This document shows, one piece after another, positions 5,848-49,541 of a DNA stretch of 64,000 nucleotides (the stretch's first letter is position 1; every line of letters starts with the position of its first letter). Made by a program: the position numbers and the translations under genes. The stretch is from Candidatus Woesearchaeota archaeon (GTDB lineage Archaea > Nanobdellota > Nanobdellia > SCGC-AAA011-G17 > UBA489). The stretch is taken from NCBI GenBank assembly GCA_964344635.1, contig CAYFOE010000002.1, positions 34,953 to 98,952 of the forward strand. Reading direction: 5' to 3'. Under the pieces are notes generated by a model. The model had not been told where the DNA came from. It did no database searches and saw nothing but the letters and a program-made list of their open reading frames with translations.

Positions 5848-6037
5848 ATTTTAATCCCTTAACAATTTTGGCTTGTTTCTTAAATTTTTTAGAAAAAAAT
5901 TTGGTAATTTCTAGGTTGGCTTCATTATTCTCGGGCTTACCTTTTGCGTTTATCTCGAAATAATTTTCATCTTCAGAAGTAATTTCAGTTTTTCTACAAC
6001 CAGTTCGTTTAACTTTAACTTGAATAGTTTTTACCAT
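5819..6037 (-). CDS. small basic hypothetical protein, start-stop coupled (TAATG) to the upstream pilin-like gene
   Basis: 72-aa lysine-rich ORF. Its ATG overlaps the stop of 6037..7935. Confidence 0.25.
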   Translation of the reverse strand: MVKTIQVKVKRTGCRKTEITSEDENYFEINAKGKPENNEANLEITKFFSKKFKKQAKIVKGLKSKTKILALS

Positions 6038-7935
6038 TAAGTGTATCTTGCGTAATCACTGACTCTAACTTCGTCGATGTATCCTTTGAAGTGTTCGTTG
6101 TTTTGGACGTTTGATCCCATTATTAAATATGCTCCGCCTGTGTCTACATCTCCAGTTTGTCCTTTTGGCGAGTCTCCTATGATCGGTCCATTTAAGACTC
6201 CATCGACGTAAATTCTCATTTCAGTTCCATCATAAACTCCTGCAACATGGTACCAGGTATTTGCGCTTGGTAGTTGTGCACTTGTTGATTTCCATGATCC
6301 TCCCCCATTGGATGTATCTATAAAGAACACTACGTTGTCATCAACAACTGAAATTGCCCATTCGCCGTTCTTGAATACGGCTCTTTGTGTTCCAGTTAAT
6401 TTCTTAGGATAAATCCATGCCTCTACAGTTAATTGGTCGGTTATACCTGATCCATCGTAATTTATTACGACTTGATCGTCATTGCCGTTAAACTCTAGTG
6501 CTGATCCATATTTTCCTGTGACCCATTTGTTTAGGTATGTGACTGGATTGCTGATCATTGATAGTGCATCAATTCCCATTGCATAATCTCCTGTTTGTTG
6601 AAAGTTTAGTAGCATTACTATTTTTGCGAATTTGGTTCCTCTCCACCAGGCTCCATATGCTGTACCATACAAGTTTTCCCCTGTTGTGGTTCCATCATAT
6701 TCTTTCCAAGTATAAAGTGCATGATCAGGAGGTCCTTGATCATATGCTTCGTACATATATGATCCTGCTCCTTTGTGCTGTCTAACTTTTGTTCCTGCAA
6801 TGAAGTCTACGTTTGCTGTTCCTTCCAATACTAGCTCCCAATAACCTTGTCCTGAATAGTCTAGAATGTCTGTTATTTTAGTAGTTAAGTCCCTGTTAGG
6901 TAAATCTGCATAGGCTCCTGAATCATCGATGTCAAATGCTGCATAAACTGATGAGCCATCATTAAGCCAGTTAGTACCATCTACAATTCTTACTGTTGTG
7001 TCTGTGGACTGTACATCCGCATAGAGTGTTGTTTCTGTAACTGCAGTAGTTACAGGATTAATTTCTTCTGATCTAATTCTAATTTGGTTTTCATCAAATG
7101 GAACATAGCCAAAAAAGAATTTACTCTTTCCTTCGCTTCCGGTAGATACAAAATGGCCACTCAAGGTGTATGTCTTTGCTAGATCTACTGCTATAAATTC
7201 TTCGCTCCATACATCATAAGGTTGTCCTGCTTTGGTGAAGCAGTAATCTCCATCATAACATTTTGCAGGGTCATAAATTGCTCCATCAAAATTATTGAAA
7301 TTAAACATTGATCCCTCTTCAGCATCTCCATTATCTATTAATTCTCCTTGAGTGTTAAATGTTCCATCTAATTTGTTGCTGCTTGAATCTCCAATAGTGC
7401 TGCCGTCTCCTTCATCAAATTTGTATAAAACTACTGTGTTTCCATCGGAATGGTATCCATTTCCGCCTTGGCTTCCTCCAAAATTTTGGTTGGATCCAAT
7501 TTCAACAACTGCAGTAATGACTGCATCTTTCATGTGTTCGATTCCACCATTCAAAAAACTATAATTGATAGTGAGAGGTTCTTCAATTAGATCATCTGGG
7601 TTAAAGTTACAATCAGATAAAGTAAACAATCCTTCGGCACCGTTGTCCAATCTCATACTGTCTGAAGAAATTCCACAACTTGCACTGCCGATTGAAAAGG
7701 TTTCAACGTCTTTGCCTAAACTATTTCTTACACTCATACTTATTGAGTCTTCATATACTGCAAAGTCATCACAACTTAATCCTGGGCCTAAAAAGCATGC
7801 TTTTGCTGCAAATGCTTTTGTATCAAATCCTAGATAGGATGTTAGAGAGCTTAATGCAACTAGAATAACTATAAGGGCCCAGCCATAAGTCATTACAAAC
7901 TCCATAGCACCTTGACCTCTTTTCCCAAAAAGCAT
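6037..7935 (-). CDS. pilin-like surface protein: class III (DUF361-type) signal peptide plus a C-terminal laminin-G (LamG_3, ConA-like lectin) domain
   Basis: N-terminus MLFGKRGQGAMEFVMTYGWALIVILVAL (K/R-G-Q then AMEF and a hydrophobic helix). C-terminus GSALEFNGNDDQVVINYDGS...LTVEAWIYP...WYHVAGVYDGTEMRIYVDGVLNG...HFKGYIDEVRVSDYARY, a canonical LamG pattern. Confidence 0.65.
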   Translation of the reverse strand: MLFGKRGQGAMEFVMTYGWALIVILVALSSLTSYLGFDTKAFAAKACFLGPGLSCDDFAVYEDSISMSVRNSLGKDVETFSIGSASCGISSDSMRLDNGAEGLFTLSDCNFNPDDLIEEPLTINYSFLNGGIEHMKDAVITAVVEIGSNQNFGGSQGGNGYHSDGNTVVLYKFDEGDGSTIGDSSSNKLDGTFNTQGELIDNGDAEEGSMFNFNNFDGAIYDPAKCYDGDYCFTKAGQPYDVWSEEFIAVDLAKTYTLSGHFVSTGSEGKSKFFFGYVPFDENQIRIRSEEINPVTTAVTETTLYADVQSTDTTVRIVDGTNWLNDGSSVYAAFDIDDSGAYADLPNRDLTTKITDILDYSGQGYWELVLEGTANVDFIAGTKVRQHKGAGSYMYEAYDQGPPDHALYTWKEYDGTTTGENLYGTAYGAWWRGTKFAKIVMLLNFQQTGDYAMGIDALSMISNPVTYLNKWVTGKYGSALEFNGNDDQVVINYDGSGITDQLTVEAWIYPKKLTGTQRAVFKNGEWAISVVDDNVVFFIDTSNGGGSWKSTSAQLPSANTWYHVAGVYDGTEMRIYVDGVLNGPIIGDSPKGQTGDVDTGGAYLIMGSNVQNNEHFKGYIDEVRVSDYARYT

Positions 7936-12990: not shown

Positions 12991-13989
12991 GTGATTCGTT
13001 GGAGTGCCTCTAAAATTAAGTCTGCAACTACTTGTGCGCATATGATTTTTTTAAGGTATTTAAAAAAGGTTCAGGATCAGATGAGTGTGCCTCTTGCGGC
13101 GGGACTTTACATCCATTCTGGTTGTGAAAAATTTAATAATCCGAAATTGAAGAGGAGAAATTTTAAATCTTCGGAGAGTTATGCTAATTCTAGGGTTGGT
13201 ACTTGGAAAAGTTTTGTTGCATCAAAAGGTGTTTATGCAGGTCAGGAGATAGAGGAGAGTTTTGATGGGGAGATTTGGGCTGCGGCAGAGGGAATAATTA
13301 AGCCTTGTTCGCAAAGTTTTTATGAAACTTTTTGTGGGAGGGAAAAACCAATTGCCTCTGAAAGAAAGTTTACGTTGTCTGCTGGAGATTTTAGGATAAC
13401 TGGAGGTATTGATTGTATTGATCCGAATTTGGTTTATTGGGATTTTAAGAGTGGTTGGGGCGATAACCCCCCTACTAAGGAAACTTTGCAGAATGATTAT
13501 CAGTTTACGATTTATTCTGCTGCTTTGCCTTTGATTCTTGCTAGTGACCCGGTTCTAGCCAGCTTATCCGATTTAACTGATGCCCAAAGAAAAGCTCTTA
13601 GGGTGGATCCTTTGTCGCTTATGGAGGAAGTGGAGGGTAGATACTTTCACCTAAAGTCTGGAATTTTTGTTCCAACGAGAAGGACTAAGTCTGATTTGAT
13701 AGATCTCTTAAACACTATTGAGGCGCAGTCAATAAGGTTTGAACAAGGTGATTTTACTAGGTCTAAGGGAAAGCATTGTGATTGGTGCCATGTGCGGGAT
13801 GCATGCCATGCTGAAACTCTTGAAGATGAGATTGAGTTTCGTAATATAAAGAAAGAGAATGATGGGTCTTTGTTGTTTCCTCCGAGGAGGGATTTGACTT
13901 TTTATACTGGGGTTCCTTCTAATACAAGGTTGGTTTCTAAGCCTTCTAGGAGGAAGAAGAAACTTCAGGAACCTAATTTGTTTGATTAA
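12991..13989 (+). CDS. PD-(D/E)xK nuclease of the Cas4/RecB family with Fe-S cluster cysteines (solo Cas4-like)
   Basis: GGIDCID...VYWDFKSG (D...D-x-K), QNDYQFTIYSAA (QhxxY), N-terminal Cys (ATTCAHM) plus the C-terminal CDWCHVRDAC (C-x2-C-x5-C). GTG start. Confidence 0.6.
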   Translation: MIRWSASKIKSATTCAHMIFLRYLKKVQDQMSVPLAAGLYIHSGCEKFNNPKLKRRNFKSSESYANSRVGTWKSFVASKGVYAGQEIEESFDGEIWAAAEGIIKPCSQSFYETFCGREKPIASERKFTLSAGDFRITGGIDCIDPNLVYWDFKSGWGDNPPTKETLQNDYQFTIYSAALPLILASDPVLASLSDLTDAQRKALRVDPLSLMEEVEGRYFHLKSGIFVPTRRTKSDLIDLLNTIEAQSIRFEQGDFTRSKGKHCDWCHVRDACHAETLEDEIEFRNIKKENDGSLLFPPRRDLTFYTGVPSNTRLVSKPSRRKKKLQEPNLFD

Positions 13990-15200
13990 TAGTTGTTTGG
14001 GTCTACTTCTTCGTAGGTTCCGCCGATTCTTATTTCGTCGTAATAAACGTAGTTGTTCATTCTTGCGCTTGGCCCTCGATACAATCCAACTTTAAGATTT
14101 TTTGGTGTGGGGTTATACATGTTGATTCCATAAAATGGGTCTGCTGTGAATAATTCTCCGTTCAACCATCCCCGGATATATCCGTCGGTGTCTGTTGACC
14201 ATTTTATTTCAAATATTATGTCGTTCCATTCTCCTAGGTTGATTTCTTTTTCTGCAATGGATGCTGCTGGTGTTTCGGGTGTTGGTTTCCATACTAATCC
14301 GATTCCTTTTTCTCCGGTTATTAGTTCGGCATATTCTAGGTGTAGTGATGGTGGCATTCTTTTTCCGTCATAGAGGTCAAACCAGTCTTCCCAGGTTTGT
14401 CCATTACCTATGTCAGGCCTATGGAACCATTGTCCTATGATGTTGAAATTGTCTGGTGCGCTTATGTTGTATTCGTAACCTGGTGGGAAGTAGATACTCC
14501 ATCCGTAGAATATTGGTTCTCCGTTCATTGGGTATTGGTCTGCGTATTCTTCTCTTAGTGATAATTCTGCCCTACTTTTGTTTGTTGGCCAGTCTGCAGG
14601 GACAGCATAGTCCAGGTAGCTTACATTGAATTTTAGTGAGTAGTCTCCGTTCCTTGAAATATCGTCTACGATGGTTATTGATTCTGAATTGTTTATTTGT
14701 AGGTTCCAAAAACTAGAGATTCCTCCGTCGTCTACATTAGTTTCTAAGGATAGTATTCCCATTGCTGCTTGGACTATTGCAGTGACTGTTATGTTTCTAA
14801 TATGGTTTATCGAACTTCCTTCAAACATGTAACTTAGGTTTAAGTCTTCATTGACTAGTTCGTTTGAGTTAAAACTGCAACCACTCATTGTGAAGATTAA
14901 TTCTTCTCCGTTTTCTAGTACATAATTACTTGGTGGGTTTGAACAGTCTGCGTGGTTTATTGATATTTCACTTAGGTCTCTGCCTAGGCTATTCAAAACA
15001 ACTAAATTGATAGAGTCTTCATGGACTACAAAGTCTTTACAAAACAAACCTGGCCCTAGAATACATGATTCACTGACAAAACCTGCACTGTCCCTCTCCC
15101 AGAACACGTTCAAAGCTCCAATTGCTACTATTGCAACTAGTATTGTCCAACCGTAGGATGCTAAAAATTCCATAGCTGCCTGCCCTCTTTTTAAATACAT
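13986..15200 (-). CDS. pilin-like surface protein: class III (DUF361-type) signal peptide plus a C-terminal jelly-roll (lyase/lectin-like) domain. Its N-terminal region is paralogous to 6037..7935.
   Basis: MYLKRGQAAMEFLASYGWTILVAIVAIGAL. The conserved N-terminal region CILGPGLFCKDFVVHEDSINLVVLNSLGRD matches CFLGPGLSCDDFAVYEDSISMSVRNSLGKD in the paralog. C-terminus ...KVGLYRGPSARMNNYVYYDEIRIGG. Confidence 0.55.
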   Translation of the reverse strand: MYLKRGQAAMEFLASYGWTILVAIVAIGALNVFWERDSAGFVSESCILGPGLFCKDFVVHEDSINLVVLNSLGRDLSEISINHADCSNPPSNYVLENGEELIFTMSGCSFNSNELVNEDLNLSYMFEGSSINHIRNITVTAIVQAAMGILSLETNVDDGGISSFWNLQINNSESITIVDDISRNGDYSLKFNVSYLDYAVPADWPTNKSRAELSLREEYADQYPMNGEPIFYGWSIYFPPGYEYNISAPDNFNIIGQWFHRPDIGNGQTWEDWFDLYDGKRMPPSLHLEYAELITGEKGIGLVWKPTPETPAASIAEKEINLGEWNDIIFEIKWSTDTDGYIRGWLNGELFTADPFYGINMYNPTPKNLKVGLYRGPSARMNNYVYYDEIRIGGTYEEVDPNNY

Positions 15201-15668: not shown

Positions 15669-15868
15669 ATAATCAGTTCAGTTTAGAAATTATTTTATCA
15701 ATCTTAGTAGTATTATTACGTCTAGGTTTAATTCTCCCTCTTAAAGGTTCATAGGATTCACCACTTTCCATAAGCTTCTTTTAACAATTTCGTTTATATA
15801 ATTTGTTATCCTAGATAACTAATGTTTAAAGATAAAAATTTCTTCCGGCTTTGTACCTCGAGGTTGAG

Positions 15869-15951
15869 CGCCACGACCCGGATTTGAACCGGGATACCCC
15901 GAAGGGTCTGGATTAGCAGTCCAGTGCGATACCAGGTTACGCGATCGTGGC
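15869..15951 (-). tRNA. tRNA-Ser (anticodon GCU), long variable arm, no encoded CCA
   Basis: The reverse complement reads GCCACGA..CTGGA-CTGCTAA-TCCAG..(long variable arm CCCTTCGGGG)..CCGGG-TTCAAAT-CCGGG-TCGTGGC-G. A TATA-like CTTATAAAG lies about 30 nt upstream. Confidence 0.7.
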
Positions 15952-15999
15952 AATGATTTGATTCGGTCGGACTTTCTTTATAAGCTTTTATCTTAGAAT

Positions 16000-17982
16000 T
16001 TATTGGTAGTTTACCCAGATTGGTGATATCCAGATTCTTTCGCCGTCTTCTTGTATTCCTTTGACGTAGTAGTTGTATGAGTTTCCACTAGTGACGTTCA
16101 GGTCTTTCCATTTGATTTGAACATTTTTACTCATGGGTTGTGTATAATAAACTAGGTCTTCCCCATTTCTGTAAACAAATACTTCGGTGAATCTGTCTGT
16201 TCCGTGTAAAACAATATCTAGATTAGGATATTTTGTGGTGTTGAATTCGCTTCCGACGAAGTGTTTATTCACTCTGAAGGATCCGATTATTCTTGCTCCT
16301 GTTGTTCCGTAGGTTCTTCTGTTATTTAGTGCTTCCCAGATTGCGTCTCTTGAGTATTCTTTTGTATATACACCAGTGATTCCCATTCTTGTGTAGTAGT
16401 CGTCCCATGTTCCGCCGTTGGAGTTTGATGCTGGTTTACCTACGTGATTGTCTGAGTCTGCTGTGAATCCAAATTTATAACCATCTTTCAATGCTTCTTG
16501 GACGAATACTCCGCTTCCTTTGGGATGTTGGTTGCTTGTGGAGAATCTTGAGGGTAGTCCACTGTCGTAGTGTTCGTTGCCTCCGTGCCAGGAGTACATT
16601 TCGATTAGTGGTTGGTTTGGGTGGTCTTTCCATGATCCCCATTTTACTGGCCCTGCAAAGGTCCATCCGGTGTGGTGGGGGATTGCTAGGGAGTCTGTTC
16701 CTGTTAGATTGTTTAATAGGTCGTCAATTTTTGATAGTTTGTAGGTTCCTGTTGATTTTTGGTTGCATGGAACTTCGCCCCAGTTTTCTGCATTTTTTAG
16801 TAGTACATGTCTGTGACCTTCTTGGTTGCTGGTCCATTCATATCCTGCGAATGCTATGAAGTTTGGTGAGTTATAGTTTACACCGTAGTCTTTTACTTTT
16901 ACCCAGTCGAATGGTAGTTCGTTTGAAACTGCTGTGCAATGTTCTGATATTGAGAAGAAGTCTAGTCCTTCAACGTTTTTTGCCCAGTCGTATGCAAAGT
17001 CTGTTGTGTGTAGTGCATGTCCTCCGATTGAGCTGTGTGTATGTATTGCTCCCCAGTATACTGCGTAGTCTTTGTATTTTCCGTTTCCTTTGATTACTGC
17101 TGGGTTGCTTGTTCCGTTGATGGTTTGGTTTCCAATTTCATAAACGAATATTTCTAGGAGGCCTCTCTTTTTAGGTATTATTTCGAACTCTACTATTCCT
17201 CTGTCTGATTCTTTGAATGTGTATTGGTTTGGCAGGATTACTTTAGCGTCTTTTGCATAGAATCCTATTGTTCCGGTATAATTTCTTACTAGTGGGTTTG
17301 CTATTTTATTGCTTGGGAATCCTTGTATTGCTTGTACTTTCATCTTCAGGGATTCGTTTATGTTTCCTACTGATCTGGTTACTACTTTGAATCTGCTTAT
17401 TGAGGTTCCACTTACTTCGATTTTTGGGTATAAACTTTCTGAGTATGCAACTTCCCAGTCACTGTTTCCGTCTTTTTTTTCTTCTACGAATATTCTAGCT
17501 TCGGCTGCATCTCTGCTTAGTTGCCAGCCTTTGCTTGCTTGACTTGTGTCTCCTAGTGTGAATTCAACTATGTCTCCTGTTTTGAAGGGGTTTGAGTTGT
17601 TTGATTGCCATACTTCGAAGCCGAATTCGCTTGGTTTGAAGTCCATGCTGTTTGGTTGGTTTAGTGAGAATTCTCTGTTTTCGATTTTTACTGTTGAATA
17701 TCCTTGTAGTGTTGGGCGGTCGATGTTGAAGTTCATCCAATAACCGTATCTTAGTTTAAAATTAGTTTCATTTTGCCACATGTGGCCGAGGTATACTCTT
17801 ACACCTCCATCATTTCCGAAGTCTTGGCTGATTGTGTAGTTTAAGTTTAAGGTTGTGAAGACTCTTTCGATTCCTTTGTCTTCCATTGATGGGTAAAAGG
17901 TATCTCCTTCCATGTTAATTTGTGCGCTAACAATTGGTAGAATTAACATTAGTGTCGTCAAAATAATTGTAATCTTTCTCAT
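16000..17982 (-). CDS. secreted metal-dependent hydrolase, PHP/CehA-McbA-like (tentative)
   Basis: Signal peptide MRKITIILTTLMLILPIVSA, plus YWGAIHTHSSIGGHA, ISEHC, LAIPHHTGW and FTADSDNHVG His/Asp clusters suggesting a PHP-type metal site. Confidence 0.35.
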   Translation of the reverse strand: MRKITIILTTLMLILPIVSAQINMEGDTFYPSMEDKGIERVFTTLNLNYTISQDFGNDGGVRVYLGHMWQNETNFKLRYGYWMNFNIDRPTLQGYSTVKIENREFSLNQPNSMDFKPSEFGFEVWQSNNSNPFKTGDIVEFTLGDTSQASKGWQLSRDAAEARIFVEEKKDGNSDWEVAYSESLYPKIEVSGTSISRFKVVTRSVGNINESLKMKVQAIQGFPSNKIANPLVRNYTGTIGFYAKDAKVILPNQYTFKESDRGIVEFEIIPKKRGLLEIFVYEIGNQTINGTSNPAVIKGNGKYKDYAVYWGAIHTHSSIGGHALHTTDFAYDWAKNVEGLDFFSISEHCTAVSNELPFDWVKVKDYGVNYNSPNFIAFAGYEWTSNQEGHRHVLLKNAENWGEVPCNQKSTGTYKLSKIDDLLNNLTGTDSLAIPHHTGWTFAGPVKWGSWKDHPNQPLIEMYSWHGGNEHYDSGLPSRFSTSNQHPKGSGVFVQEALKDGYKFGFTADSDNHVGKPASNSNGGTWDDYYTRMGITGVYTKEYSRDAIWEALNNRRTYGTTGARIIGSFRVNKHFVGSEFNTTKYPNLDIVLHGTDRFTEVFVYRNGEDLVYYTQPMSKNVQIKWKDLNVTSGNSYNYYVKGIQEDGERIWISPIWVNYQ

Positions 17983-18028
17983 GGGGTTTACGACATCAAA
18001 CTTATTTAAAAAATTAACTAAAGTTTAG

Positions 18029-18111
18029 CGCCGCAGGCAGGATTTGAACCTGCATATCCAGAGGAAACCGGTTTTCGAGACCGGCGCGATACCAGATTAC
18101 GCGACCGCGGC
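18029..18111 (-). tRNA. tRNA-Ser (anticodon CGA), long variable arm, no encoded CCA
   Basis: The reverse complement reads GCCGCGG..CCGGT-CTCGAAA-ACCGG..(long variable arm)..GCAGG-TTCAAAT-CCTGC-CTGCGGC-G. Confidence 0.7.
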
Positions 18112-18217
18112 GTATCTTCAAAAATAGCTGAAACCTTTATTAACTTACTCATCGAAAGATTTATATACTAAATCATATAGTCTGGAGTATATAGTTAGTC
18201 TAAAAGAGGCTATTAAA

Positions 18218-19009
18218 ATGACTCAAAGCAGAAACAAGGGATTTATGCCTAACGGTAAGAATGGAAGTCCTGAATGGATTGAAGAACTGTTGGCATACCA
18301 TAGGGAAAACCCTGATGGAGACGCAGAAGAAATACTCTTTCAAGCAATGCATACTGATAGTTTGACTGGTGTTCTTGCTAGAAGCGGTATCGAACATGTT
18401 ATTGATCAAATAGAGGAATCTAGGACGCCTACTGGTGTTGCATTCTTTGATTTAATGGATTTTAAGCAAATTAATGATGAAATAGGTCACGATGCAGGAG
18501 ATAGAGCGATTTCTTATACTGCAAACACTTTAGCAAAGATACTCCGTACGGGAAAAACTGGAGATAGAAGACAATCAGAGAGAATAGTTTTCCAATCTGG
18601 TCCGGATAGAAGGTCTTATTCTCTAAAGGAAGATATTGTTTTTAACAAATTAGTTGAAAGGTCAGAAGTCGGAAGAATGGGCGGAGATGAATTCTTGGTT
18701 TTACTTCCAAGAGTTAGAACTTATGCTGCACTAGAAAATATTGGATTTAGGGTGGCTGATGCGATTAACAGTGATCCGGATTGTCAACCAACTTCTATTG
18801 GTTTTGCACTTTACCAACCTGATAAGGTGGGTATGGCTGAAACAATTGCACATGCAGATAAGGCAATGTATGCTGCTAAAAAAGAACTCAAATTAGACAA
18901 GAAGGAAAGGAATCTTTCTAGGTCAGAAAGTGGGTTCGGAATCCACCAACCTGATAAAGATTTCAAGATTTATCTTCCTGGAGATATCAAAAGTAAAAAG
19001 ATAGCGTGA
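18218..19009 (+). CDS. GGDEF-domain protein (putative diguanylate cyclase; intact GGDEF A-site, no RxxD I-site)
   Basis: DSLTGVLARSG, FFDLMDFKQINDEIGHDAGDRAI, RMGGDEFLVLLP, HADKAMYAAKKE. An AAGAGG SD-like motif sits about 10 nt upstream of the ATG. Visibly GC-richer than the flanks. Confidence 0.7.
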   Translation: MTQSRNKGFMPNGKNGSPEWIEELLAYHRENPDGDAEEILFQAMHTDSLTGVLARSGIEHVIDQIEESRTPTGVAFFDLMDFKQINDEIGHDAGDRAISYTANTLAKILRTGKTGDRRQSERIVFQSGPDRRSYSLKEDIVFNKLVERSEVGRMGGDEFLVLLPRVRTYAALENIGFRVADAINSDPDCQPTSIGFALYQPDKVGMAETIAHADKAMYAAKKELKLDKKERNLSRSESGFGIHQPDKDFKIYLPGDIKSKKIA

Positions 19010-19052
19010 GCTTATCAAAACACTTAAAAGAGAACTAAATGTCCTATACCAC

Positions 19053-19127
19053 AGCGAGGTAGGACAGTTAGGAGTGTCCGTCGGGCTCATAACCCGGAGG
19101 TCGCTGGTTCAAATCCAGCCCTCGCTA
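19053..19127 (+). tRNA. tRNA-Met (anticodon CAU), initiator-type (A1:U72, GGG/CCC anticodon stem)
   Basis: AGCGAGG-TA-GGAC..GTCC-G-TCGGG-CTCATAA-CCCGG-AGGTC-GCTGG-TTCAAAT-CCAGC-CCTCGCT-A. The tabulated ORF 19074..20054 begins (GTG) inside this tRNA, so that ORF was trimmed. Confidence 0.7.
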
Positions 19128-19136
19128 CTTCTAAAA

Positions 19137-21622: not shown

Positions 21623-21778
21623 TTATTTTTCAACCCCCAAAGTTGACATATAATTTAGAAAATATAGGTTTAAAAGATTATATGGTTCGATATTCTGCAT
21701 TTTTAGGCTCTTAAACAACAAAATAGAAGAAGATTTATAAAAGAAAACTGCTCTCAAAAAGAAAAGAAGTGACAAAAT

Positions 21779-28780: not shown

Positions 28781-29983
28781 CTATTTAAATATTTTGCTAC
28801 TGTCCTTGCCATGCATTTTCATCCTATGGTGCCATACCATCCAGATTAAATTAATGATTAACAACGCTCCAAGCCCAATTAAAATTTTGATTAATAAACT
28901 GTGTTTCTTTTTTACAAATTCACTTCTTTCAAAGTTGATTTCTATTTTTTCGTTGAATATTTCGGTTTCAAATTCTCTCTCTATTTGTGAGCTTCCATAA
29001 TAAACTGACAATCTTGTGATATATTCGGATTCATTAAACTCTCCTAGGTTGATATGGCCATTTAAAACCACATCCTCTCCGTTTGCTAGATTTACTCTTG
29101 AGGTTTCAAATGAGCCAACGAGATTGTTATGTTTATCATAGACTTGGACTTCGGCATAGACTCTTTCTAAGTCTGCATCTTGAATGTTTCTTAGTTCAAT
29201 TTCAAAGCTTGCAACTCCTTCAACTAGATTCTTAGCATAAAAATCTTCTAGAACAATTTTTGGTCCGATTACTTCAAATTCTCCGCTAAGAGTTTTTACT
29301 ATGTCTTCATAACTAACAATCAATTCTGCAGAATAAGTTCCTAATTCTCCTTCGTTATCCCACAAGAAGTTAACTTCTCTATTTTTTTCAAGGCCTACAT
29401 AAGAAATACTTTTATTCATCCTAACTTCGCTATCATCATTACTAATCACTAATTCGACACCTAAGTTCTCAACAATTTCTGAGCCTTTGTTCTTGAGAGA
29501 AACTAAGAATTTTGTACTTTCTCCTACACCTCCTTCGACAATGAACAGTTCAGGTTCAATGTATTTTTCACTGTAGGGCACTTCTAAGATTAACTGAGTT
29601 GTTAAGGAAACGCTTGCACTAACTTTATTTTCTTCGATACCGTTTAATTCTTTAACAATAAGGTTTATTTCGTTTCTGCCTTCAACCATGCCTTGAGGAT
29701 ATCCTTCTGGCAAATTCAAAAAGTACCTTATACTTTTTTCGGACAATTCTTTAACATTAAATGAGGTTTCTTCAAAATTTACGTAAGTTGCCATTGCTCC
29801 AGTTTTGCCTAAAACAATATTGATTGGCCTATTTTCGGTGTTTACAACTTTGAAACTGCCTTCAAAGTTTAGGCCCGGTTCGTAACTTATTATCTTTTTT
29901 GCAGGAGTAATTCCTAAACCTAAAACTAATGATGAACTCAAAATAAATAAAATACAAATTCCGAAGATTAATTTAAACTTCAT
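28781..29983 (-). CDS. surface protein with signal peptide and C-terminal TM anchor; paralog of 26663..27847. Its ATG overlaps the stop of the giant gene (ATGA).
   Basis: Signal peptide MKFKLIFGICILFILSSSLVLGLGITPA, C-terminal LLIKILIGLGALLIINLIWMVW. Confidence 0.45.
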   Translation of the reverse strand: MKFKLIFGICILFILSSSLVLGLGITPAKKIISYEPGLNFEGSFKVVNTENRPINIVLGKTGAMATYVNFEETSFNVKELSEKSIRYFLNLPEGYPQGMVEGRNEINLIVKELNGIEENKVSASVSLTTQLILEVPYSEKYIEPELFIVEGGVGESTKFLVSLKNKGSEIVENLGVELVISNDDSEVRMNKSISYVGLEKNREVNFLWDNEGELGTYSAELIVSYEDIVKTLSGEFEVIGPKIVLEDFYAKNLVEGVASFEIELRNIQDADLERVYAEVQVYDKHNNLVGSFETSRVNLANGEDVVLNGHINLGEFNESEYITRLSVYYGSSQIEREFETEIFNEKIEINFERSEFVKKKHSLLIKILIGLGALLIINLIWMVWHHRMKMHGKDSSKIFK

Positions 29984-32900
29984 CCTCCTCCAACCTCACC
30001 ATACCATGTAGTTAATTCTAAAACCATTCCTTTTGCACCAACTATTTCTTCATCTGGTACTGAAATATTAAAGTCTATTCTGGCTTCGTCGGATGCATCA
30101 TCCTTGCTAAGGTTATTGATGAATTTCTCATCAGCACCTGATGCGGGCATTATCCTATAGGTTATGTTTGAATCTGCTGCATCAAATGATGTGCCTTCTG
30201 TTCCGTCTCCAACTTTAACTGAGAAATAATCTATGCTATGTGGGAGACTCTGGGTTGTCCAGAATGCAACACTTGGGCCTGTAATGTTCACGTCTGCATC
30301 AACATTTCCTGAGTTTTCAATCCATATTGGACAAGGGGTGGGCGTCTGGGTTGCTAGATCGCATCCTGAGGTCTCTGACCTAACTCCTAGGCCTAATAAG
30401 CCGAAGTCAACAACTTGGTCTAAAATGTCCAATGCCACATATACGCTAAGGTTGTAATAAAATGTGTCTGGAACATTTTCTTCTGTAACGTATGGGTCTG
30501 AGGTTTTTACTGTCCATTCATAGTATCTGTTGTCATCATAGAAGTAGATTAAGTCTGTTGGCAACGTAAAGGTACAGTTGTCTTCGTTATCTAAGTATCC
30601 GTTGGCGTTAGCATCACAATTGGTTGAGTTCTCCTCAACAGTGTAAGTTCTTGCATCGTCGCATGATCCTCCACCGACTAAGAAGCAACTAATATTGATG
30701 TCATAATCTACTTGGTCTTGGTCTGGGTCTGAAGTTCTGTCTTGGCAGAAGAATTCTCCTTCTGAGACACATGAAGAGTTCCCTACTGCTGGCAATCTTG
30801 CAAATTCATTTGCAGGTGTCCAATTGAAAGTTGGCGTCCTATTTGTGTGAGTTGTTGTGTTTATTGGTGTGTTCAAGATTGCAGTTCCCGGCTCATAATT
30901 TTCAATGAATATGTAATCTGAGTCTACTTGGTCTGAAACACTGGATCTACTGTCAGTTGCTGTTACGTTACAGCTGTAATTTTCAAAATGATTGTACGTA
31001 AATGCAGACAAGTTATCTGTATATGGGTACCCTGATGGAATACCTGTTGGAGAGTTGGTTGCAAACAGAGTGGTTTGATTATAGTATTTGATTGTCAGGT
31101 CTACTGTCCCATCCACATCATCTGTTGCTGTAAAGGTGCAGTTAATTCCTGTAGTCCTATTAACGCCTGTAGGGCCTATTGATAGGTCACTAATTTCTGG
31201 TTTCCTATCTACTGTGAACATCCAGGACTCGCTTTCATTTAAAAGGTCTGAGATAGATTCTTCATCATCGTGATCGTAGGCTTCTATAAACCAGGAATGG
31301 TCTCCTGCTTTTAACCTGTACATGTCTAGAACTTCTGAGGCATTTAAACTTTTGTTTAGTATTGCAAATTCGTCTATTGATCCGTTGAAAGGATACGCAG
31401 CAGTATCGAAATCATTCCTTCCTGTCCCAATATAAACATCCCCAATATTATTTTCTGTGAAAGGCACAAAAGTATAAGATGTATTAAAAATACCATTCCG
31501 GTAAACTGAAACTTGATCACTTTCATTAAAACTAACTACAATATGTGTCCAAGTGTCTATCTCGAAAGCTCCATCCAGTATGGTTGTGGTTGTCCCAAGT
31601 TTTAATCTCAATTCATCACTAACCATCCTAATTGCAAACCCATTTGAGGAAGCCCTTTTATCAAATATTCCTCGAGTATTCCCTATAAAACGAGGTTTAA
31701 CCCAGAATGCATAAGAAATATTATTATTACGCATCCAATCATCTTGGTCCCCAAAGTTCACCCTGCTAGTATCTGAGGTTGCTTTTGAAAAAAACGTTCC
31801 TCCTAATTTTCCACCAGATTTATTTATTCTTGCATTACTTTCAATAGTCCCATTTTGTACCCCATCAGCATCTGCAAAATCAAATACTCTGGTACTGTTC
31901 TCCCCATATTTTGTATTATTGTCAAAATGAGCTAATAACAAGTAATTCCCATCTGGGACTAGAACCGGAGCTGTCCAATTATATGTTAAGTCTGTGTTGT
32001 TTTGCCAGCTTTGATTTTGGTATAACATGTCAGAATAAGCAACATCCGATTTGGATTGACCACTTGAGCCATAAATTGTTACAAATGTTAATGAGTCAGT
32101 GGAATCGTATACTGTTGAGTTCAGTAAGATTTCTCCTGTATCTGTAAAGTTAGTAGTATTAGCTGGAGCGTTTAATGTTATTTTTGGGGCTGTGTTGCTT
32201 AGTATTCCTAGTCCGAAATTAAACAGCTCAGAATTATTGACTAACTCGCTGTCATCTCCTGAGGCATTCCAGTAGTGTGTTGCACTGGTTAATTTTAAAG
32301 TGTCATTTATTTCTGAGCCAGTTAGGGTCCTATTAATTAGAATGACATCATCTAGTCCCCCATCCCAAGGAACTGGATTTCCTCCACCTGTTGAGGCTCC
32401 TGCTGCTAGCCTGTGTGAAAGTATTGCTGCAGTGTACATTGCCTGAGCATTTTCATAGGTGTCGATTACTATTCCATTTTTATAGAGAGTATAACTCCCA
32501 TTTTTATACTTAGTTAATGCTACATGGTTCCATTCTCCTGCGGTATCAAAGAATCCTGCCGTGTCTGTATTTTTTTCAGCTGCACCATTTCCTTGAATAA
32601 CTGTTATCGCACCACTTTTCTGTCCTATAAACCACCCTACATATTTTCCTGGAGCTAAAGTTGGATCGTAAACCCCTTGAGATGCAATAAATCCATTTTG
32701 GGAAAGATCATTAGATTTAACCCATCCCATCCAGGTTAGATTCCAACCATGTTGAATTTCAGTATAACCAGTACCTAAGTGTAACCAGTCTCCAGTCCCA
32801 TCAAACTCATAATGGCCACCAAATACATCGTTTGAGAAATTAACTACGGCATTTCCTGCTGGTGTTCCATTTTTATTTCCCGCCCAGTCTAAAACTAGAT

Positions 32901-35900
32901 TTGGAGTTTCTCCTACACCTAAGACTTCATCAAAATGGAATCCATATTGAGTATCTGCTACTATATCAAATGGGTATTTACTCCAATTATAAGTTATTTG
33001 GGTTCCATTACTCACGTTAAATTTATACAATAGATCATGTAACGAAGGATTTGCATTACTTGCACCATATATGCTTAATGTAACGTTATCTACTGGTAAC
33101 AAATCATCCTCAACTCTAACTTGTAGTTCTACACCTGCAGTTCCTGCATCAAAGTGAGAGTTATTTACAGGGCTTTCGAGAGTTACATTTGAGACTTCAT
33201 TGGGATCAGTAATGTGATCAAACTCTAAATACTTTTCCGTTAAGCCATCTTCATTGATAACTTTCAGATCAAATGTGTCATTCATACCGACCATGTCTGT
33301 TAAATAAGCTTTGTAATACCCTTCAGAATCAATAATTGGGAAGGTTGCAACTAGGCTAGTGGTGTTGGCTACATAAACCTCTACACGAGTATTTGCTCCT
33401 TGTACATTCCTAACATAAATTTTAACATGATGGTTTGCTGTTAGATTTTGTATGAATTCTGCTCTTATAATTTCTGTGTGGTTGATGAATTCTGTCCAGT
33501 TTCCATCTAGATATCTTGATTCATTATACACATCTGAAATAAATGAATAGTTTTCATCTAGGTGTTGTGCTGCTGAAATATTGATTTCTCCAAATCCTGG
33601 GTCGTTAGGGTAGAGTGTGATGTTGTATTCTTCTCCAGGTGTTAGTCCTGTTTTCAATAATTTCCAGGAACCACCACAGGATTGTTCGGTGTAATTCCAT
33701 TCTTGACATTTATACAAGGTATCTGCAGTTGCAACAACAGTCACAGTGGCATTAGTGAAGTTTTCTGTTTTTGGATTGATTGCATAGGTTTTTTGGAATT
33801 CTTCAAGTTCGAAAGATTCATCTAGATCGACTAACTGATTAATTGGGCTTGCAACGTTATAATCATCAAATATTACTTGCTTAATTTTTCCACTTGAAGG
33901 TTTATAGATAATATCGTACATTCCTGGAACAACACTTAGATTATGTACGGTTCCATTCCTGCCATATATTAAATCTCCAGTGTCAGATTTAACTTCTAGG
34001 AATACGTTTACTAATACTCCTCTTCCGTCTTCAACTGATTCCATAACAGTGACATTGAATCCGTTTTCGAAAATAGGGTCTTCTATTAGGTCCCATTCTA
34101 AATATGCATCATCAATCAAATTTTTGTTCATGACTTTGAGGTTAAATTCGTTCGAACTTCCGTTAAATCCGTCTAGATTCAAGGAATAATATCCTTCTCC
34201 TATGATTAATGAAGAGTCCATGATTTTATTTTTCAAATCACTAGTATAGATTTCGAATAGGTTCTTTGATTCTTGTACATTTCTTAGATACATTCCGATA
34301 GAGTTTTCTCCAGTTAAATTTCCTTCAAAAACAACTCTCAAGTATTCTCCATGGTGTATCTTGCTTCCATAAACTCCATCTTGAGCAATGGTTGTAGCTT
34401 CTAAATTTGAAATGTATCTATCTGTTTTATCTCTGTGTTCTACAGTAACAGAACTAATCAATAATTCATAGGTTTCGTTTCCTAAAACTGGAACTATCCA
34501 TTCAATGTAATCAATTTTTCCATCTTCGTTGGTGTCATGTCCGGTAAAATTGATCTTAACTCTTTTAGTATCATTTTTGCCTTGTAAATTAAACAGGTAA
34601 ATATCCTTTAAATCACTCTCCGGAATATTCGCAAATGAAAGAACGTCTTTATATTCTACAACTGAGCCTAGGATTATTTTCATTCCATTATTTAGTGTTT
34701 CAATTTGGATTGTGGGTGCAGGCGTTTCATATTCTACGATGATTTCATCGACTTTATCATTAACTAAGATAGTATCATTAACCTGTTCCTTTAAACTATC
34801 TGCAACTGCCATTCCAGTTATTGCGTTTCCGGTAATTCTGTTTACTAATTGGTCGATGAAGGAGTCGGATCCAACACCTAACTCGATAATTGTCCCATTG
34901 CCTTCGTCTAATTCTGCTGATTCAATTTCTCCTTGCCTGCCGTTTAGTATTTTCTTTAAAGAGATGTTTCCTGCTTCTTCGGGCATGTCAAATTCGACAT
35001 TGCTTTGTTCACTGCCTAAAACAATTTTTTTCTTCCATTGGACTGGCTCACCTATTACTGCGCCATATTGTATAACTTCTTCAGTATAACTTCCTTTATC
35101 TACAACGTCTCCAGCTTCTTCCTCACTAGAGGTATTGGATTTTGAGGAATCATTGTCTTCAAAATCATCTTCGATAATTAAAACATTAAACCCGTCAGAA
35201 TCTCTCAACTCAATTGAATAATTAGCTCCCTCCAAGGGCCCATATCCTATTTCTAAGGATTCTAAACCTAAAACTGAATCTTGGATATAAAATTTGATAA
35301 TGTATTCTCTTCCGATTGCATTTCTTAATCTGCAGGCGTCTTCACAAACATTTTCAAATTCTTCAATAGTATGATTGCTAATATTCAATGATTCTAAATA
35401 GTCTTTCAATAAATCTTCTTTAACTTCTTCTTCGACAATTTCGATTTCTTCTTCTACGTCTTCAACATCTTCTTTCTTAATTTCAAATACTCCCTCAGCA
35501 AAAGCTACAATTTCATTTGTCAAATTAATAGTGTAGTTTTCTGAAATATTGATATCTAATAAGTATTCCCAGTTGGTTAAACAAATTCCGTATTCAAAGT
35601 CCCACAGACTGCAACCGTATAGGTATTCTCCTTCGGCAGTTGAACTCAGTGTTAGGTTGGATTCATTAAATTTGGAGAAATTGAGGCCTGAAAAGTCGAA
35701 TCCGAATACTTTTTCAAAACTAATGTTTACTGGTTCGATTAATCCTCTTGCAGAATACTCTTCGTAGGCTAACCAACCACCTTTTTCAGGATATTTAATT
35801 TCTAAAAAATCTCCTAATCCTAGAATAAAACTTTCATTAGTTGAATTAAGATAGTTGTAAATTACGTTTTCTCCTCTAGAATTCAAAACTCCAAAATCTT

Positions 35901-40405: not shown

Positions 40406-40479
40406 GGGGATATAGCATAACCTGGCTAGTGTGGTCGGCTCCAGACCGATTGATTCAGGTTCGAATCCTGATATCCCCA
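40406..40479 (+). tRNA. tRNA, most likely Trp (anticodon CCA), intronless, no encoded CCA
   Basis: GGGGATA...GTCGG-CTCCAGA-CCGAT..TCAGG-TTCGAAT-CCTGA-TATCCCC-A. The register giving U33-CCA-G37 is preferred over a CUC reading with G33. TTTTTAAATTAAA lies about 30 nt upstream. Confidence 0.55.
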
Positions 40480-40481
40480 TA

Positions 40482-40871
40482 CTATTCCTCAAATTCTTTC
40501 TTAAAGGTGGAGGCTATGTCTATTACATACTTTCCGTCTGATAATTTATAGACTAATGGTTCACCCTTGAACAGGTCAACTAAATCTATTTCAAAATGGC
40601 CTGGCTTCAAAACACGGATAGATTCCAGATCTAAAACGACTGGCAAATCTTTTGAAACTTCGGTCTCAGTCTTATCTCCGACTAATTCCATAGCATCTTT
40701 TTCAATCTGCTTTTTATCGTTATCAGTTAATTTGGTTGTAAGTTTTTTTGCTTCCTCAACTGACTTTTCCTTCATAAAAAAGAAAAATCTTCCGCCACAA
40801 CTACATCCAGTGAGAACTTCTCTAGATCCATCCTCGTATAATTTAGAACATCTAACACATTGGTGAGGCAT
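40482..40871 (-). CDS. zinc-ribbon protein (archaeal DUF2072-like), third gene of the GTPase triad
   Basis: MPHQCVRCSKLYEDGSREVLTGCSCGG. 129 aa. Its ATG abuts the stop of the upstream gene. Confidence 0.4.
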   Translation of the reverse strand: MPHQCVRCSKLYEDGSREVLTGCSCGGRFFFFMKEKSVEEAKKLTTKLTDNDKKQIEKDAMELVGDKTETEVSKDLPVVLDLESIRVLKPGHFEIDLVDLFKGEPLVYKLSDGKYVIDIASTFKKEFEE

Positions 40872-41366
40872 TTACTTGCGCCCCCTCTTAACGGTTCTTC
40901 TTGCAGTCCTAACAGTTCTTTTCTTAGAAGCCTTTTTTGTAGTCTTCTTAGCCCTCTTACTGCTTGCTTTCTTCCTTGGTTTAGAAGCAAATGCTCCCAT
41001 CCCAGGCATGGTAAATAGTTCAATCTTGTTAGGATTCCTTCTAATTTCCTTAACAACTGTTGAAGGACCGATTATAGTAACTCCATCCCTATTACCTATC
41101 AGAAACTTCACCATTTCTTTCTTAATTTTATTAAAAAATTGTAAATTGTTTTCTTCAGGATAAATTGTACAGATTTCAACACCAATGAATTTCTTGTGAA
41201 TCTGAGACATAGTCTCCATAATCAATAAAGTTTCTTCTTCAGGTTTCAACCTACCTTGCATCAGAACTATCTTATCCTGTTTAACTATATTCAAAAGTTT
41301 ATCAATTCTATCTTTTGAAGATAAATTTTCAATCTCTCCGTATGGCACAAATTGTAATGTTAACAT
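40872..41366 (-). CDS. conserved archaeal protein (DUF2073-like) with a Lys/Arg-rich C-terminal tail
   Basis: 164 aa. C-terminal tail KPRKKASSKRAKKTTKKASKKRTVRTARRTVKRGRK. Confidence 0.4.
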   Translation of the reverse strand: MLTLQFVPYGEIENLSSKDRIDKLLNIVKQDKIVLMQGRLKPEEETLLIMETMSQIHKKFIGVEICTIYPEENNLQFFNKIKKEMVKFLIGNRDGVTIIGPSTVVKEIRRNPNKIELFTMPGMGAFASKPRKKASSKRAKKTTKKASKKRTVRTARRTVKRGRK

Positions 41367-41377
41367 CTTATCACCTC

Positions 41378-48559: not shown

Positions 48560-48599
48560 AACATATAAATAAGAAGTTCTTAACAAGTTCATGTTAAAA

Positions 48600-49538: not shown

Positions 49539-49541
49539 ACA

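What the first reader, a model, noticed from the sequence alone, without database searches (positions are those of the whole stretch)
18029..19127. Intact GGDEF diguanylate-cyclase gene in an archaeal-type genome, flanked by two tRNA genes and GC-richer than its surroundings
The ORF has every GGDEF hallmark: D-x-LTG, DxxxFKxIND..GHxxGD, RxGGDEF, HAD.AMY.AK. As far as I know, GGDEF/c-di-GMP signalling is essentially absent from archaea, which use c-di-AMP. The gene lies in the roughly 1 kb between tRNA-Ser(CGA) and initiator tRNA-Met, a classic integration hotspot. Its composition is visibly less AT-rich than neighbouring genes, and it carries a bacterial-style AGGAGG-like SD. This suggests horizontal acquisition, plausibly from a bacterial partner or neighbour. 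No EAL, HD-GYP or PilZ partner is seen in the window. The short N-terminus (about 50 aa) has no sensor domain, so it could be constitutively active or regulated in trans.
Basis: partly seen in the sequence, partly recalled or inferred. Interest (0 to 1): 0.7.

Follow-up and report, generated by a model that had tools for sequence, protein, structure and literature searches.

The report
Native GGDEF cyclase gene in Woesearchaeota
A small archaeon of the Woesearchaeota group carries an intact, long-resident gene for the enzyme type that makes the "bacterial" messenger c-di-GMP. This gives a clean candidate for testing whether any archaea use that signal.

Summary

- Gene GC is 0.385 against 0.366±0.023 for the window's genes, and GC3 is below average.
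- The GAGG Shine-Dalgarno-like motif occurs before a third of the window's genes.
- There is no integrase and no att-like repeat.
- Orthologues (39-63% identical) occupy the same slot, tRNA-Ser / GGDEF / tRNA-Met / Dus / RNase HII / SMC, in at least six other related archaeal genomes.
- dN/dS is 0.26 on the one unsaturated pair.
- Bacterial GGDEFs are at most 33% identical over the aligned region and no donor is identifiable.

The family has no sensor domain. A roughly 35-aa Arg-rich disordered insertion replaces the RxxD inhibitory site. There is also a C-terminal hairpin extension.

No EAL, HD-GYP, PilZ or c-di-GMP riboswitch is in the 64 kb.

Most likely this is a constitutively competent diguanylate cyclase native to a DPANN lineage. 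Its activity and its receptors are untested.

The parts
18218..19009 (+). GGDEF-domain protein gene, 263 aa plus stop: predicted stand-alone diguanylate cyclase
18218..18352 (+). N-terminal 45 aa. Holds the family-specific motif FMPxGKxxSxEWI and two helices (res 18-30, 36-45). Putative dimerisation stalk, with no sensor domain.
   Evidence: Invariant columns F9 M10 P11 G13 S17 W20 I21 among the 6 close members. Helices from the AF2 model. Long Foldseek alignments to stalk-containing DGCs 3i5c, 6ttr and 7e6g. The stalk role is inferred.
18548..18658 (+). Family-specific insertion of about 35 aa (res 111-147), Arg-rich (GDRR ... DRR) and predicted disordered. It sits where canonical GGDEF domains carry the RxxD inhibitory site.
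   Evidence: The Pfam hit is split into two stretches. In the profile-PDB alignment, query 113 jumps to 144/148 while 6et7 runs continuously through 'LRDTDKFGRWGGEEF'. pLDDT is below 50 for res 113-138. D116 R117 R118 are invariant in A1, and R117 R118 are at least 90% conserved in A2.
18680..18694 (+). GGDEF active-site motif (G155 G156 D157 E158 F159)
   Evidence: GGC GGA GAT GAA TTC read from the sequence. G156 D157 E158 F159 are invariant in all 12 family members and G155 in 11 of 12.
18914..19006 (+). C-terminal extension (res 233-263): a beta-hairpin plus a helix beyond the canonical domain. The hairpin peptide SGFGIHQPDK repeats the beta4 peptide IGFALYQPDK.
   Evidence: AF2 strands 239-244 and 248-252 and helix 254-262, pLDDT about 90. 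Direct DNA repeat 18799-18825 / 18931-18957. 'SESGF..IYLP' is conserved in the family.
18153..18168 (+). Candidate archaeal BRE/TATA promoter of the GGDEF gene (CGAAAGATTTATATAC)
   Evidence: 'GAAA.A.TTATATAC' is invariant in the six orthologous upstream regions (A3). The promoter assignment is inferred from position, about 50 nt upstream of the ATG.
18204..18209 (+). Shine-Dalgarno-like AAGAGG, 8 nt before the ATG
   Evidence: Sequence. Conserved in the orthologues. The same kind of core precedes 23 of 69 window ORFs.
18028..18111 (-). tRNA-Ser(CGA), transcribed divergently from the GGDEF gene
   Evidence: ARAGORN. Rfam 56.9 bits. The same tRNA sits upstream of the orthologues in L006, L007, L009, L012 and L020.
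19053..19128 (+). Initiator-type tRNA-Met(CAT), 43 nt after the GGDEF stop and 5 nt before the Dus start codon
   Evidence: ARAGORN. Rfam 63.2 bits. A1:U72 and the GGG/CCC anticodon stem are read. The position is conserved in all orthologous loci.

Best explanation
The gene encodes a stand-alone diguanylate cyclase that is a native, vertically inherited gene of a clade of Woesearchaeota-type (DPANN) archaea. It is not a recent bacterial import.

Proposed mechanism. It is transcribed from its own archaeal BRE/TATA promoter. The protein dimerises, probably through its two N-terminal helices. Two GGDEF half-sites then condense two GTP into c-di-GMP.

Regulation. There is no sensor domain, and the canonical RxxD product-inhibition site is interrupted by a disordered Arg-rich insertion. 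Activity is therefore probably set by expression level or by a partner acting in trans, possibly on that insertion or on the conserved C-terminal hairpin.

What is shown and what is inferred.
- Shown: domain identity, fold, conservation of the catalytic residues, archaeal context, synteny and purifying selection.
- Inferred: enzymatic product, dimerisation, mode of regulation and the existence of receptors.
For: Identity:
- Pfam and TIGRFAM GGDEF above their cut-offs.

Catalytic competence:
- D78 (metal), N86 and D95 (guanine), R153, G156-D157-E158-F159 and K221 are invariant in all 12 family members.
- They align with the equivalent residues of the GTP-bound phytochrome-DGC 6et7/5llx.
- PleD numbering (D327, N335, D344, R366, GGEEF 368-372, K442) is from my own knowledge.

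Archaeal context:
- aCPSF1, dph5, proteasome beta, OapB/C and archease-RtcB lie in the same window.
- Orthologues are annotated in Candidatus Woesearchaeota MAGs.

Not chimeric:
- The identical gene with the same flanks occurs in independent assemblies of several runs.

Long residence:
- Same slot in the genomes carrying P0002, P0003, P0004, P0006 and P0270.
- Upstream promoter elements are conserved.
- GC and GC3 are typical.
- dN/dS is 0.26 at dS 0.36 for the L006/L014 pair.
Against: - No biochemical data exist.
- No EAL, HD-GYP or PilZ protein and no c-di-GMP riboswitch lie in the 64 kb. A complete signalling circuit is therefore not demonstrated, and the rest of the genome could not be searched.
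- c-di-GMP has never been detected in an archaeon (PMC10249747).
- The 35-aa insertion next to the active-site hairpin could impair or redirect activity.
- The gene evolves faster than its neighbours: 61-63% identity against 74-79%. Three divergent types (41-44% identical to each other) occupy the same slot. That pattern also fits a relaxed or shifting function.
Confidence: 0.7

Rival explanations
1. One reading: a recently acquired bacterial gene, integrated as a small island at a tRNA hotspot, perhaps from a bacterial partner.
For: GGDEF domains are overwhelmingly bacterial. The gene lies between two tRNA genes. The segment just upstream, between the two tRNA-Ser genes, does vary between genomes, and one lineage has a LAGLIDADG ORF next to tRNA-Ser.
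Against: Ordinary GC and low GC3. No integrase and no att-like repeat. Conserved synteny and conserved promoter in at least 6 divergent archaeal genomes. The nearest bacterial proteins are at most 33% identical over the aligned region and taxonomically scattered. Only 4 representatives reach E<=1e-30 in 1.84 billion.
Confidence: 0.04
2. Assembly or binning artefact: a bacterial fragment mis-joined into an archaeal contig. Galperin raises this concern for archaeal MAG GGDEF and HD-GYP hits.
For: A general caveat in the literature. Several assemblies break shortly after the gene.
Against: The gene is internal to contigs of 54-265 kb, with archaeal genes on both sides, in different samples and with different assemblers. 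The flanking tRNAs and intergenic DNA align across the orthologous loci.
Confidence: 0.01
3. A GGDEF-fold protein that is not a c-di-GMP synthase. It could make another product (a linear or hybrid dinucleotide), act as a GTP or c-di-GMP-binding receptor or scaffold, or have a lineage-specific role tied to the Arg-rich insertion, for example nucleic-acid binding.
For: There is a large conserved insertion beside the catalytic hairpin and a novel C-terminal hairpin. No turnover or receptor genes lie nearby. Evolution is fast. R110 and R178 are invariant, which fits retained nucleotide binding at a remodelled site. From my own knowledge these are the equivalents of the PleD I-site residues R359 and R390.
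Against: Every catalytic residue is invariant, which degenerate receptor-type GGDEFs usually lose. D95 matches the canonical guanine-specific Asp rather than the Ser of Hypr cGAMP synthases (the Hypr rule is from my own knowledge of Hallberg 2016). No PADLOC defence family matches.
Confidence: 0.2
4. An archaeal GTP cyclohydrolase III (MJ0145-type) or a class III nucleotidyl cyclase, both of which share the palm fold.
Confidence: 0.01

Closest known systems
Bacterial stand-alone or stalk-GGDEF diguanylate cyclases (e.g. the GGDEF domains of DgcZ/YdeH, SiaD, DgcB, WspR, PleD)
   Different: Archaeal host. No REC, CZB, PAS or membrane sensor. The RxxD I-site is replaced by a roughly 35-aa disordered DRR-rich insertion. 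There is an extra C-terminal beta-hairpin and helix. Identity to any bacterial GGDEF is at most 33% (best BLASTP local alignment, covering about two-thirds of the protein).
Methanocella arvoryzae RCIX2274 (CAJ37382): REC-PAS-PocR-GGDEF-HD-GYP, described as the only GGDEF known from a complete archaeal genome
   Same: A GGDEF domain encoded in an archaeon (bioRxiv 10.1101/2021.11.05.467447 and PMC5847659).
   Different: That protein is a single multidomain bacterial-type protein in one methanogen. This one is a minimal single-domain protein forming a small orthologous family conserved across several DPANN genomes.
REC-GGDEF (inactivated) response regulators reported in 'Candidatus Micrarchaeum acidiphilum' draft genomes
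   Same: A GGDEF domain in a DPANN archaeon (PMC5847659).
   Different: Those are WspR-like with a degenerate GGDEF, and their authenticity was questioned. This one has no REC, has an intact GGDEF, and its archaeal context is verified by synteny.

Membership tests
GGDEF-domain diguanylate cyclase (PF00990 / TIGR00254) | Significant match to the family HMMs above their curated cut-offs | tested here: met
   PF00990: 82.9 bits against 23.8. TIGR00254: 78.1 against 37.4.
GGDEF-domain diguanylate cyclase (PF00990 / TIGR00254) | Intact A-site GG[D/E]EF (criterion of PMC2952852) | tested here: met
   G155-G156-D157-E158-F159 at nt 18680-18694. Conserved in the family.
GGDEF-domain diguanylate cyclase (PF00990 / TIGR00254) | Metal-binding Asp in beta1, guanine-binding Asn and Asp, and the phosphate-binding Lys after alpha4 (PleD D327, N335, D344, K442; numbering from my own knowledge) | tested here: met
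   D78, N86, D95 and K221 are invariant in 12 of 12 members. They align to the corresponding residues of 6et7.
GGDEF-domain diguanylate cyclase (PF00990 / TIGR00254) | GGDEF (palm-like) fold | tested here: met
GGDEF-domain diguanylate cyclase (PF00990 / TIGR00254) | Synthesis of c-di-GMP from GTP by a homodimer | not testable with these tools
   Needs an enzyme assay. Dimerisation through the N-terminal helices is an inference.
Product-inhibited DGCs (I-site class) | [quoted passage not shown] | tested here: not met
   The four residues at that position are VERS. There is no RxxD in SLKEDIVFNKLVERSEVGRM. The insertion replaces the 'LRDTD' of 6et7. R110 is kept and the Asp is lost.
Hypr GGDEF (cGAMP synthases) | Ser in place of the guanine-specifying Asp (PleD D344 position; Hallberg 2016, from my own knowledge) | tested here: not met
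   GHDAGD: D95 is invariant.
Complete c-di-GMP signalling module | A cognate phosphodiesterase (EAL or HD-GYP) and a receptor (PilZ, MshEN, degenerate GGDEF/EAL, or a riboswitch) in the same genome | tested here: inconclusive
   None in the window ORFs scanned with Pfam (51 of 69 ORFs of >=70 aa, including all 46 without a recognisable function). No GEMM riboswitch.
tRNA-targeted genomic island / recent HGT | Atypical composition, an integrase, a duplicated tRNA 3' end (att), and patchy presence among close relatives | tested here: not met
   GC z = 0.8 and GC3 z = -1.2. No integrase. No att-like repeat. Present in the same slot in all related loci examined.
Archaeal GTP cyclohydrolase III (MJ0145 type) | Closest sequence and structure match to the GCH III family | tested here: not met

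The most novel reading that the evidence does not exclude
A lineage of DPANN archaea really synthesises c-di-GMP with this minimal cyclase and uses it physiologically. Because no bacterial-type EAL, HD-GYP or PilZ components are visible nearby, turnover and reception would run through components not yet recognised. Alternatively, the nucleotide could act on the bacterial or archaeal cells these episymbionts attach to. Either way it would be the first c-di-GMP pathway native to Archaea.
Probability: 0.35. Interest if true: 0.8.

Novelty: new member of a known kind. Interest (0 to 1): 0.55.

Why it matters
Reviews state that c-di-GMP has never been detected in archaea. They also treat archaeal GGDEF and HD-GYP hits in MAGs as possible bacterial contamination. 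This locus removes the contamination objection for one family. The gene sits inside long archaeal contigs, is syntenic across several diverged genomes, is under purifying selection and keeps every catalytic residue. The question 'do any archaea make c-di-GMP?' therefore becomes directly testable with a 263-aa soluble protein. The locus also points to a natural GGDEF variant whose inhibitory site is replaced by an Arg-rich loop.

Tried and rejected
- Composition as a transfer signal was rejected: GC z = 0.8 and GC3 z = -1.2. The orthologues show the same small offset from their locus GC.
- The SD as a bacterial hallmark was rejected: it precedes 23 of 69 window ORFs.
- att-like repeats: only the generic similarity of tRNA T-arms turned up.
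- I first thought the tRNA-Ser/GGDEF intergenic region was unusually conserved (73%), hinting at a leader RNA or operator. Two control intergenic regions are even more conserved (88% and 80%). I therefore claim only conserved promoter elements. The palindrome CTATATAC-TAGA-GTATATAG seen in some orthologues is degenerate in the window.
- Defence-system link: no PADLOC hit for the gene or its upstream neighbours.
- The GTDB genome scan returned only one archaeal representative and one weak Burkholderia hit.
- Contexts of the remote members P0125 and P0121 sit on contigs of about 1 kb and are uninformative. P0129 (Tara marine contigs, next to a TrmB-type regulator) and P0147 (next to MetRS) have different contexts and reveal no shared partner.
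- The afdb50 fold library was unavailable.
- No bacterial donor could be named. The non-family hits come from Burkholderiales, Bacillales, Actinomycetota, Acidobacteriota and others.

Full report
**1. What is at the coordinates**

The flagged interval 18029-19127 holds three features.
- tRNA-Ser(CGA) at 18028-18111 on the minus strand.
- A 263-aa ORF at 18218-19009 on the plus strand.
- tRNA-Met(CAT) at 19053-19128 on the plus strand.

The ORF matches Pfam GGDEF (PF00990) at E 2.7e-23, 82.9 bits against a cut-off of 23.8. It matches TIGR00254 at 78.1 bits against 37.4.

Read directly, the tRNA-Met has an A1:U72 pair and three G:C pairs closing the anticodon stem. That is the archaeal/eukaryal initiator type.

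**2. Is the contig archaeal, and is the join real?**

The same window encodes several archaeal markers.
- aCPSF1 (TIGR03675, 866.9 bits against a cut-off of 580.2).
- Diphthine synthase Dph5, plus a diphthamide-synthase fusion.
- An archaeal-type proteasome beta subunit.
- The origin-associated proteins OapC and OapB with their GTPase.
- Archease and RtcB.

Two surface proteins start with archaeal class III (pilin-like) signal peptides (translations).

The exact protein is carried by 11 contigs from several sequencing runs and assemblers, up to 265 kb, with identical flanks. Chimerism or contamination is therefore very unlikely.

The closest named relatives are annotated 'GGDEF domain-containing protein [Candidatus Woesearchaeota archaeon]'. 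That places them in kingdom Nanobdellati, the DPANN group.

**3. Composition and translation signals**

- Gene GC is 0.385. The 49 window genes average 0.366 with sd 0.023, so z = 0.8 and the gene ranks 12th of 49.
- GC3 is 0.261 against a mean of 0.311, z = -1.2.
- The orthologues show the same small offset from their own loci.
- The 'SD' is AAGAGG, 8 nt before the ATG. A GAGG/GGAG-type core precedes 23 of 69 ORFs in the window and is conserved in the archaeal orthologues.

Neither feature marks the gene as foreign.

**4. Relatives and synteny**

A word-indexed search of 5.8 billion proteins found five close relatives, 39-63% identical and all 261-267 aa. The next hits were bacterial GGDEF proteins at no more than 33% identity (best BLASTP local alignment) and E about 1e-14.

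An exhaustive HMMER scan of 1.84 billion representatives found only four proteins at E<=1e-30. It added a few more distant members of the same architecture (12-sequence alignment A2).

Wherever the contig is long enough, the orthologues occupy the same slot: tRNA-Ser(CGA), GGDEF, tRNA-iMet, Dus, RNase HII, polyprenyl synthase, SMC. On the other side the block Dph6 / PD-(D/E)XK nuclease is shared. This was checked for:
- P0002 (L006, L007);
- P0003 (L014);
- P0004 (L009-L011);
- P0006 (L012);
- P0270 (L024, L025; upstream side only);
- P0121 (L020; the tRNA-Ser only).

The part that varies between genomes is the stretch between the two tRNA-Ser genes. Here it holds DUF3604; elsewhere it holds LemA/TPM phosphatase or small ORFs. 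The GGDEF gene itself does not vary in position.

There is no integrase and no tRNA-derived direct repeat around the gene.

Neighbouring housekeeping proteins are 74-79% identical between these genomes. The GGDEF proteins are 61-63% identical, or 41-44% for two further types in the same slot. The gene therefore evolves faster than its neighbours, but it is constrained. For the only pair with unsaturated synonymous sites (L006/L014, dS 0.36), dN/dS is 0.26.

The upstream region carries an invariant 'GAAA.A.TTATATAC' (window 18153-18168). I read this as an archaeal BRE/TATA element, with the conserved SD-like motif and 'TTAAAATG' after it.

I checked whether this conservation is exceptional. It is not: two control intergenic regions are 88% and 80% conserved.

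Conclusion: the gene is a long-standing resident of this clade. A bacterial origin of the domain remains the most parsimonious deep history, because GGDEF is overwhelmingly bacterial. But the transfer predates the divergence of these genomes, and no donor can be named.

**5. Anatomy of the protein**

Residues invariant in all 12 members are D47, T50, D78, N86, H91, D95, R110, R153, G156-D157-E158-F159, R178 and K221.

The profile alignment to the GTP-bound phytochrome-DGC 6et7/5llw gives these roles. PleD numbering is from my own knowledge.
- D78: the beta1 metal ligand (PleD D327).
- N86 and D95: the guanine-recognising pair (N335, D344).
- K221: the phosphate-binding lysine (K442).

D95 is the canonical Asp, not the Ser of Hypr cGAMP synthases.

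Three features set the family apart.
- *N-terminus.* It is 45 aa with a conserved FMPxGKxxSxEWI motif and two helices, and no sensor domain. Long Foldseek alignments to stalk-containing cyclases (GCN4-WspR, DgcB, SiaD) suggest a dimerisation stalk. This is an inference.
- *Insertion.* A roughly 35-aa insertion (res 111-147) is predicted disordered and carries conserved DRR motifs. It sits exactly where canonical domains have the RxxD inhibitory site. 6et7 reads LRDTDKFGRWGGEEF; this protein reads LRTGKTGDRR...(insertion)...SEVGRMGGDEF. By the published criterion (RxxD five residues upstream, or within 20 residues; PMC2952852) the I-site is absent. R110 and R178, the counterparts of PleD R359 and R390, are nevertheless invariant. 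A remodelled nucleotide-binding site is therefore possible but unproven.
- *C-terminus.* A confident beta-hairpin and helix (res 233-263) follow the canonical domain. The hairpin peptide SGFGIHQPDK echoes the beta4 peptide IGFALYQPDK, and this is visible as a DNA repeat.

**6. Partners**

I scanned 51 of the window's 69 ORFs of at least 70 aa against Pfam, including all 46 without a recognisable function; the other 18 are recognisable housekeeping genes. None carried EAL, HD-GYP or PilZ, and Pfam may not cover MshEN-type sites. Rfam found only four tRNAs and no c-di-GMP riboswitch. PADLOC found no defence-system link.

More distant family members sit in other contexts. One is next to a TrmB-type regulator on Tara marine contigs, and one is next to MetRS. 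No recurring partner appears. The rest of the genome could not be searched with these tools.

**7. Interpretation**

The best-supported reading (confidence about 0.7) is a catalytically competent, minimal diguanylate cyclase native to a Woesearchaeota-type lineage.
- It has its own archaeal promoter.
- It is probably active as a homodimer.
- It lacks classical product inhibition.
- It is regulated by expression or in trans.

The main rival (about 0.2) is a GGDEF-fold protein with a different product or a binding role. The insertion, the fast evolution and the lack of nearby turnover or receptor genes leave that open.

Recent island-type transfer (about 0.04), an assembly artefact (about 0.01) and GCH III or a class III cyclase (about 0.01) are essentially excluded.

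**8. Relation to what is known**

Published surveys say the following.
- The only GGDEF in a complete archaeal genome is the multidomain RCIX2274 of Methanocella arvoryzae.
- A REC plus degenerate GGDEF occurs in Ca. Micrarchaeum drafts.
- MAG-derived cases may be contamination.
- c-di-GMP has not been detected in any archaeon.

NCBI already labels two of these orthologues as GGDEF-domain proteins, so the annotation itself is not new. The new contribution is the demonstration that the gene is genuinely archaeal, conserved and catalytically intact, together with the description of its I-site insertion and terminal extensions.

I file it as a new member of a known kind, namely the GGDEF diguanylate cyclases. 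Its interest is moderate because of its host domain.

Noticed in passing
L007:1993-2751(-) with tRNA-Ser(cga) at L007:1971-2055(-); the same arrangement in L006 and L008: In the genomes carrying P0002, a 252-aa LAGLIDADG_3 ORF lies between tRNA-Ser(CGA) and the GGDEF gene and overlaps the tRNA's 5' end by about 60 nt. It is absent from the window. It may be a homing-endonuclease insertion beside the tRNA.
   Followed up: no
window 19128-19134; A5 alignment of L006, L009, L012 and L014: The Dus (tRNA dihydrouridine synthase) start codon lies 5 nt after the 3' end of the initiator tRNA-Met. The junction CTTCTNAAAATGGA is conserved in all the orthologous loci. This suggests a tRNA-mRNA co-transcript whose processing creates a near-leaderless Dus mRNA.
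   Followed up: partly
window 40482-42163 (-), with tRNA-Trp at 40406-40479: OapC, OapB and a small GTPase form the 'origin-associated protein' trio known from archaeal replication origins. A replication origin may lie nearby.
   Followed up: no
L012:10001-10786, L020:333-1118 and L024:10001-10786, compared with window 18218-19009: At least three divergent GGDEF types, 41-44% identical to each other, occupy the same syntenic slot. Flanking Dus, RNase HII and SMC stay 74-79% identical. This points to accelerated evolution or allele replacement within the family.
   Followed up: partly
window 15868-18111 (between tRNA-Ser(gct) and tRNA-Ser(cga)): The segment between the two tRNA-Ser genes is the truly variable spot. 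It holds a 660-aa DUF3604 protein here and in L006 and L012, LemA/TPM-phosphatase genes in L009, and small ORFs in L014.
   Followed up: partly
window 21623-21778, 19010-19052 and 18112-18217, with the orthologous loci: Intergenic DNA in this clade is 73-88% identical. Synonymous sites of the GGDEF gene, by contrast, are near saturation (pS 0.5-0.7 in the pairs involving the window). Non-coding conservation is unusually strong for such compact genomes.
   Followed up: partly
window 6037-7935 (-), 13986-15200 (-) and 29980-36657 (-): Two secreted proteins carry pilin-like class III signal peptides (…RGQGAMEF… and …RGQAAMEF…). One is fused to Laminin_G_3 and the other to a polysaccharide-lyase domain. 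There is also a 2225-aa surface protein with Laminin_G_3. This looks like a cell-surface or attachment repertoire typical of episymbiotic DPANN.
   Followed up: no
window 48591-51799 (+): Carbamate kinase and ornithine carbamoyltransferase (read from the translations) flank a 442-aa ORF whose only hit is a weak CobW-like P-loop match. This is an arginine-deiminase-pathway fragment with an unknown middle gene.
   Followed up: no
window 18799-18825 and 18931-18957: A 27-nt direct repeat inside the GGDEF gene encodes IGFALYQPDK and SGFGIHQPDK. The family's C-terminal hairpin may have arisen by partial duplication of strand beta4.
   Followed up: partly
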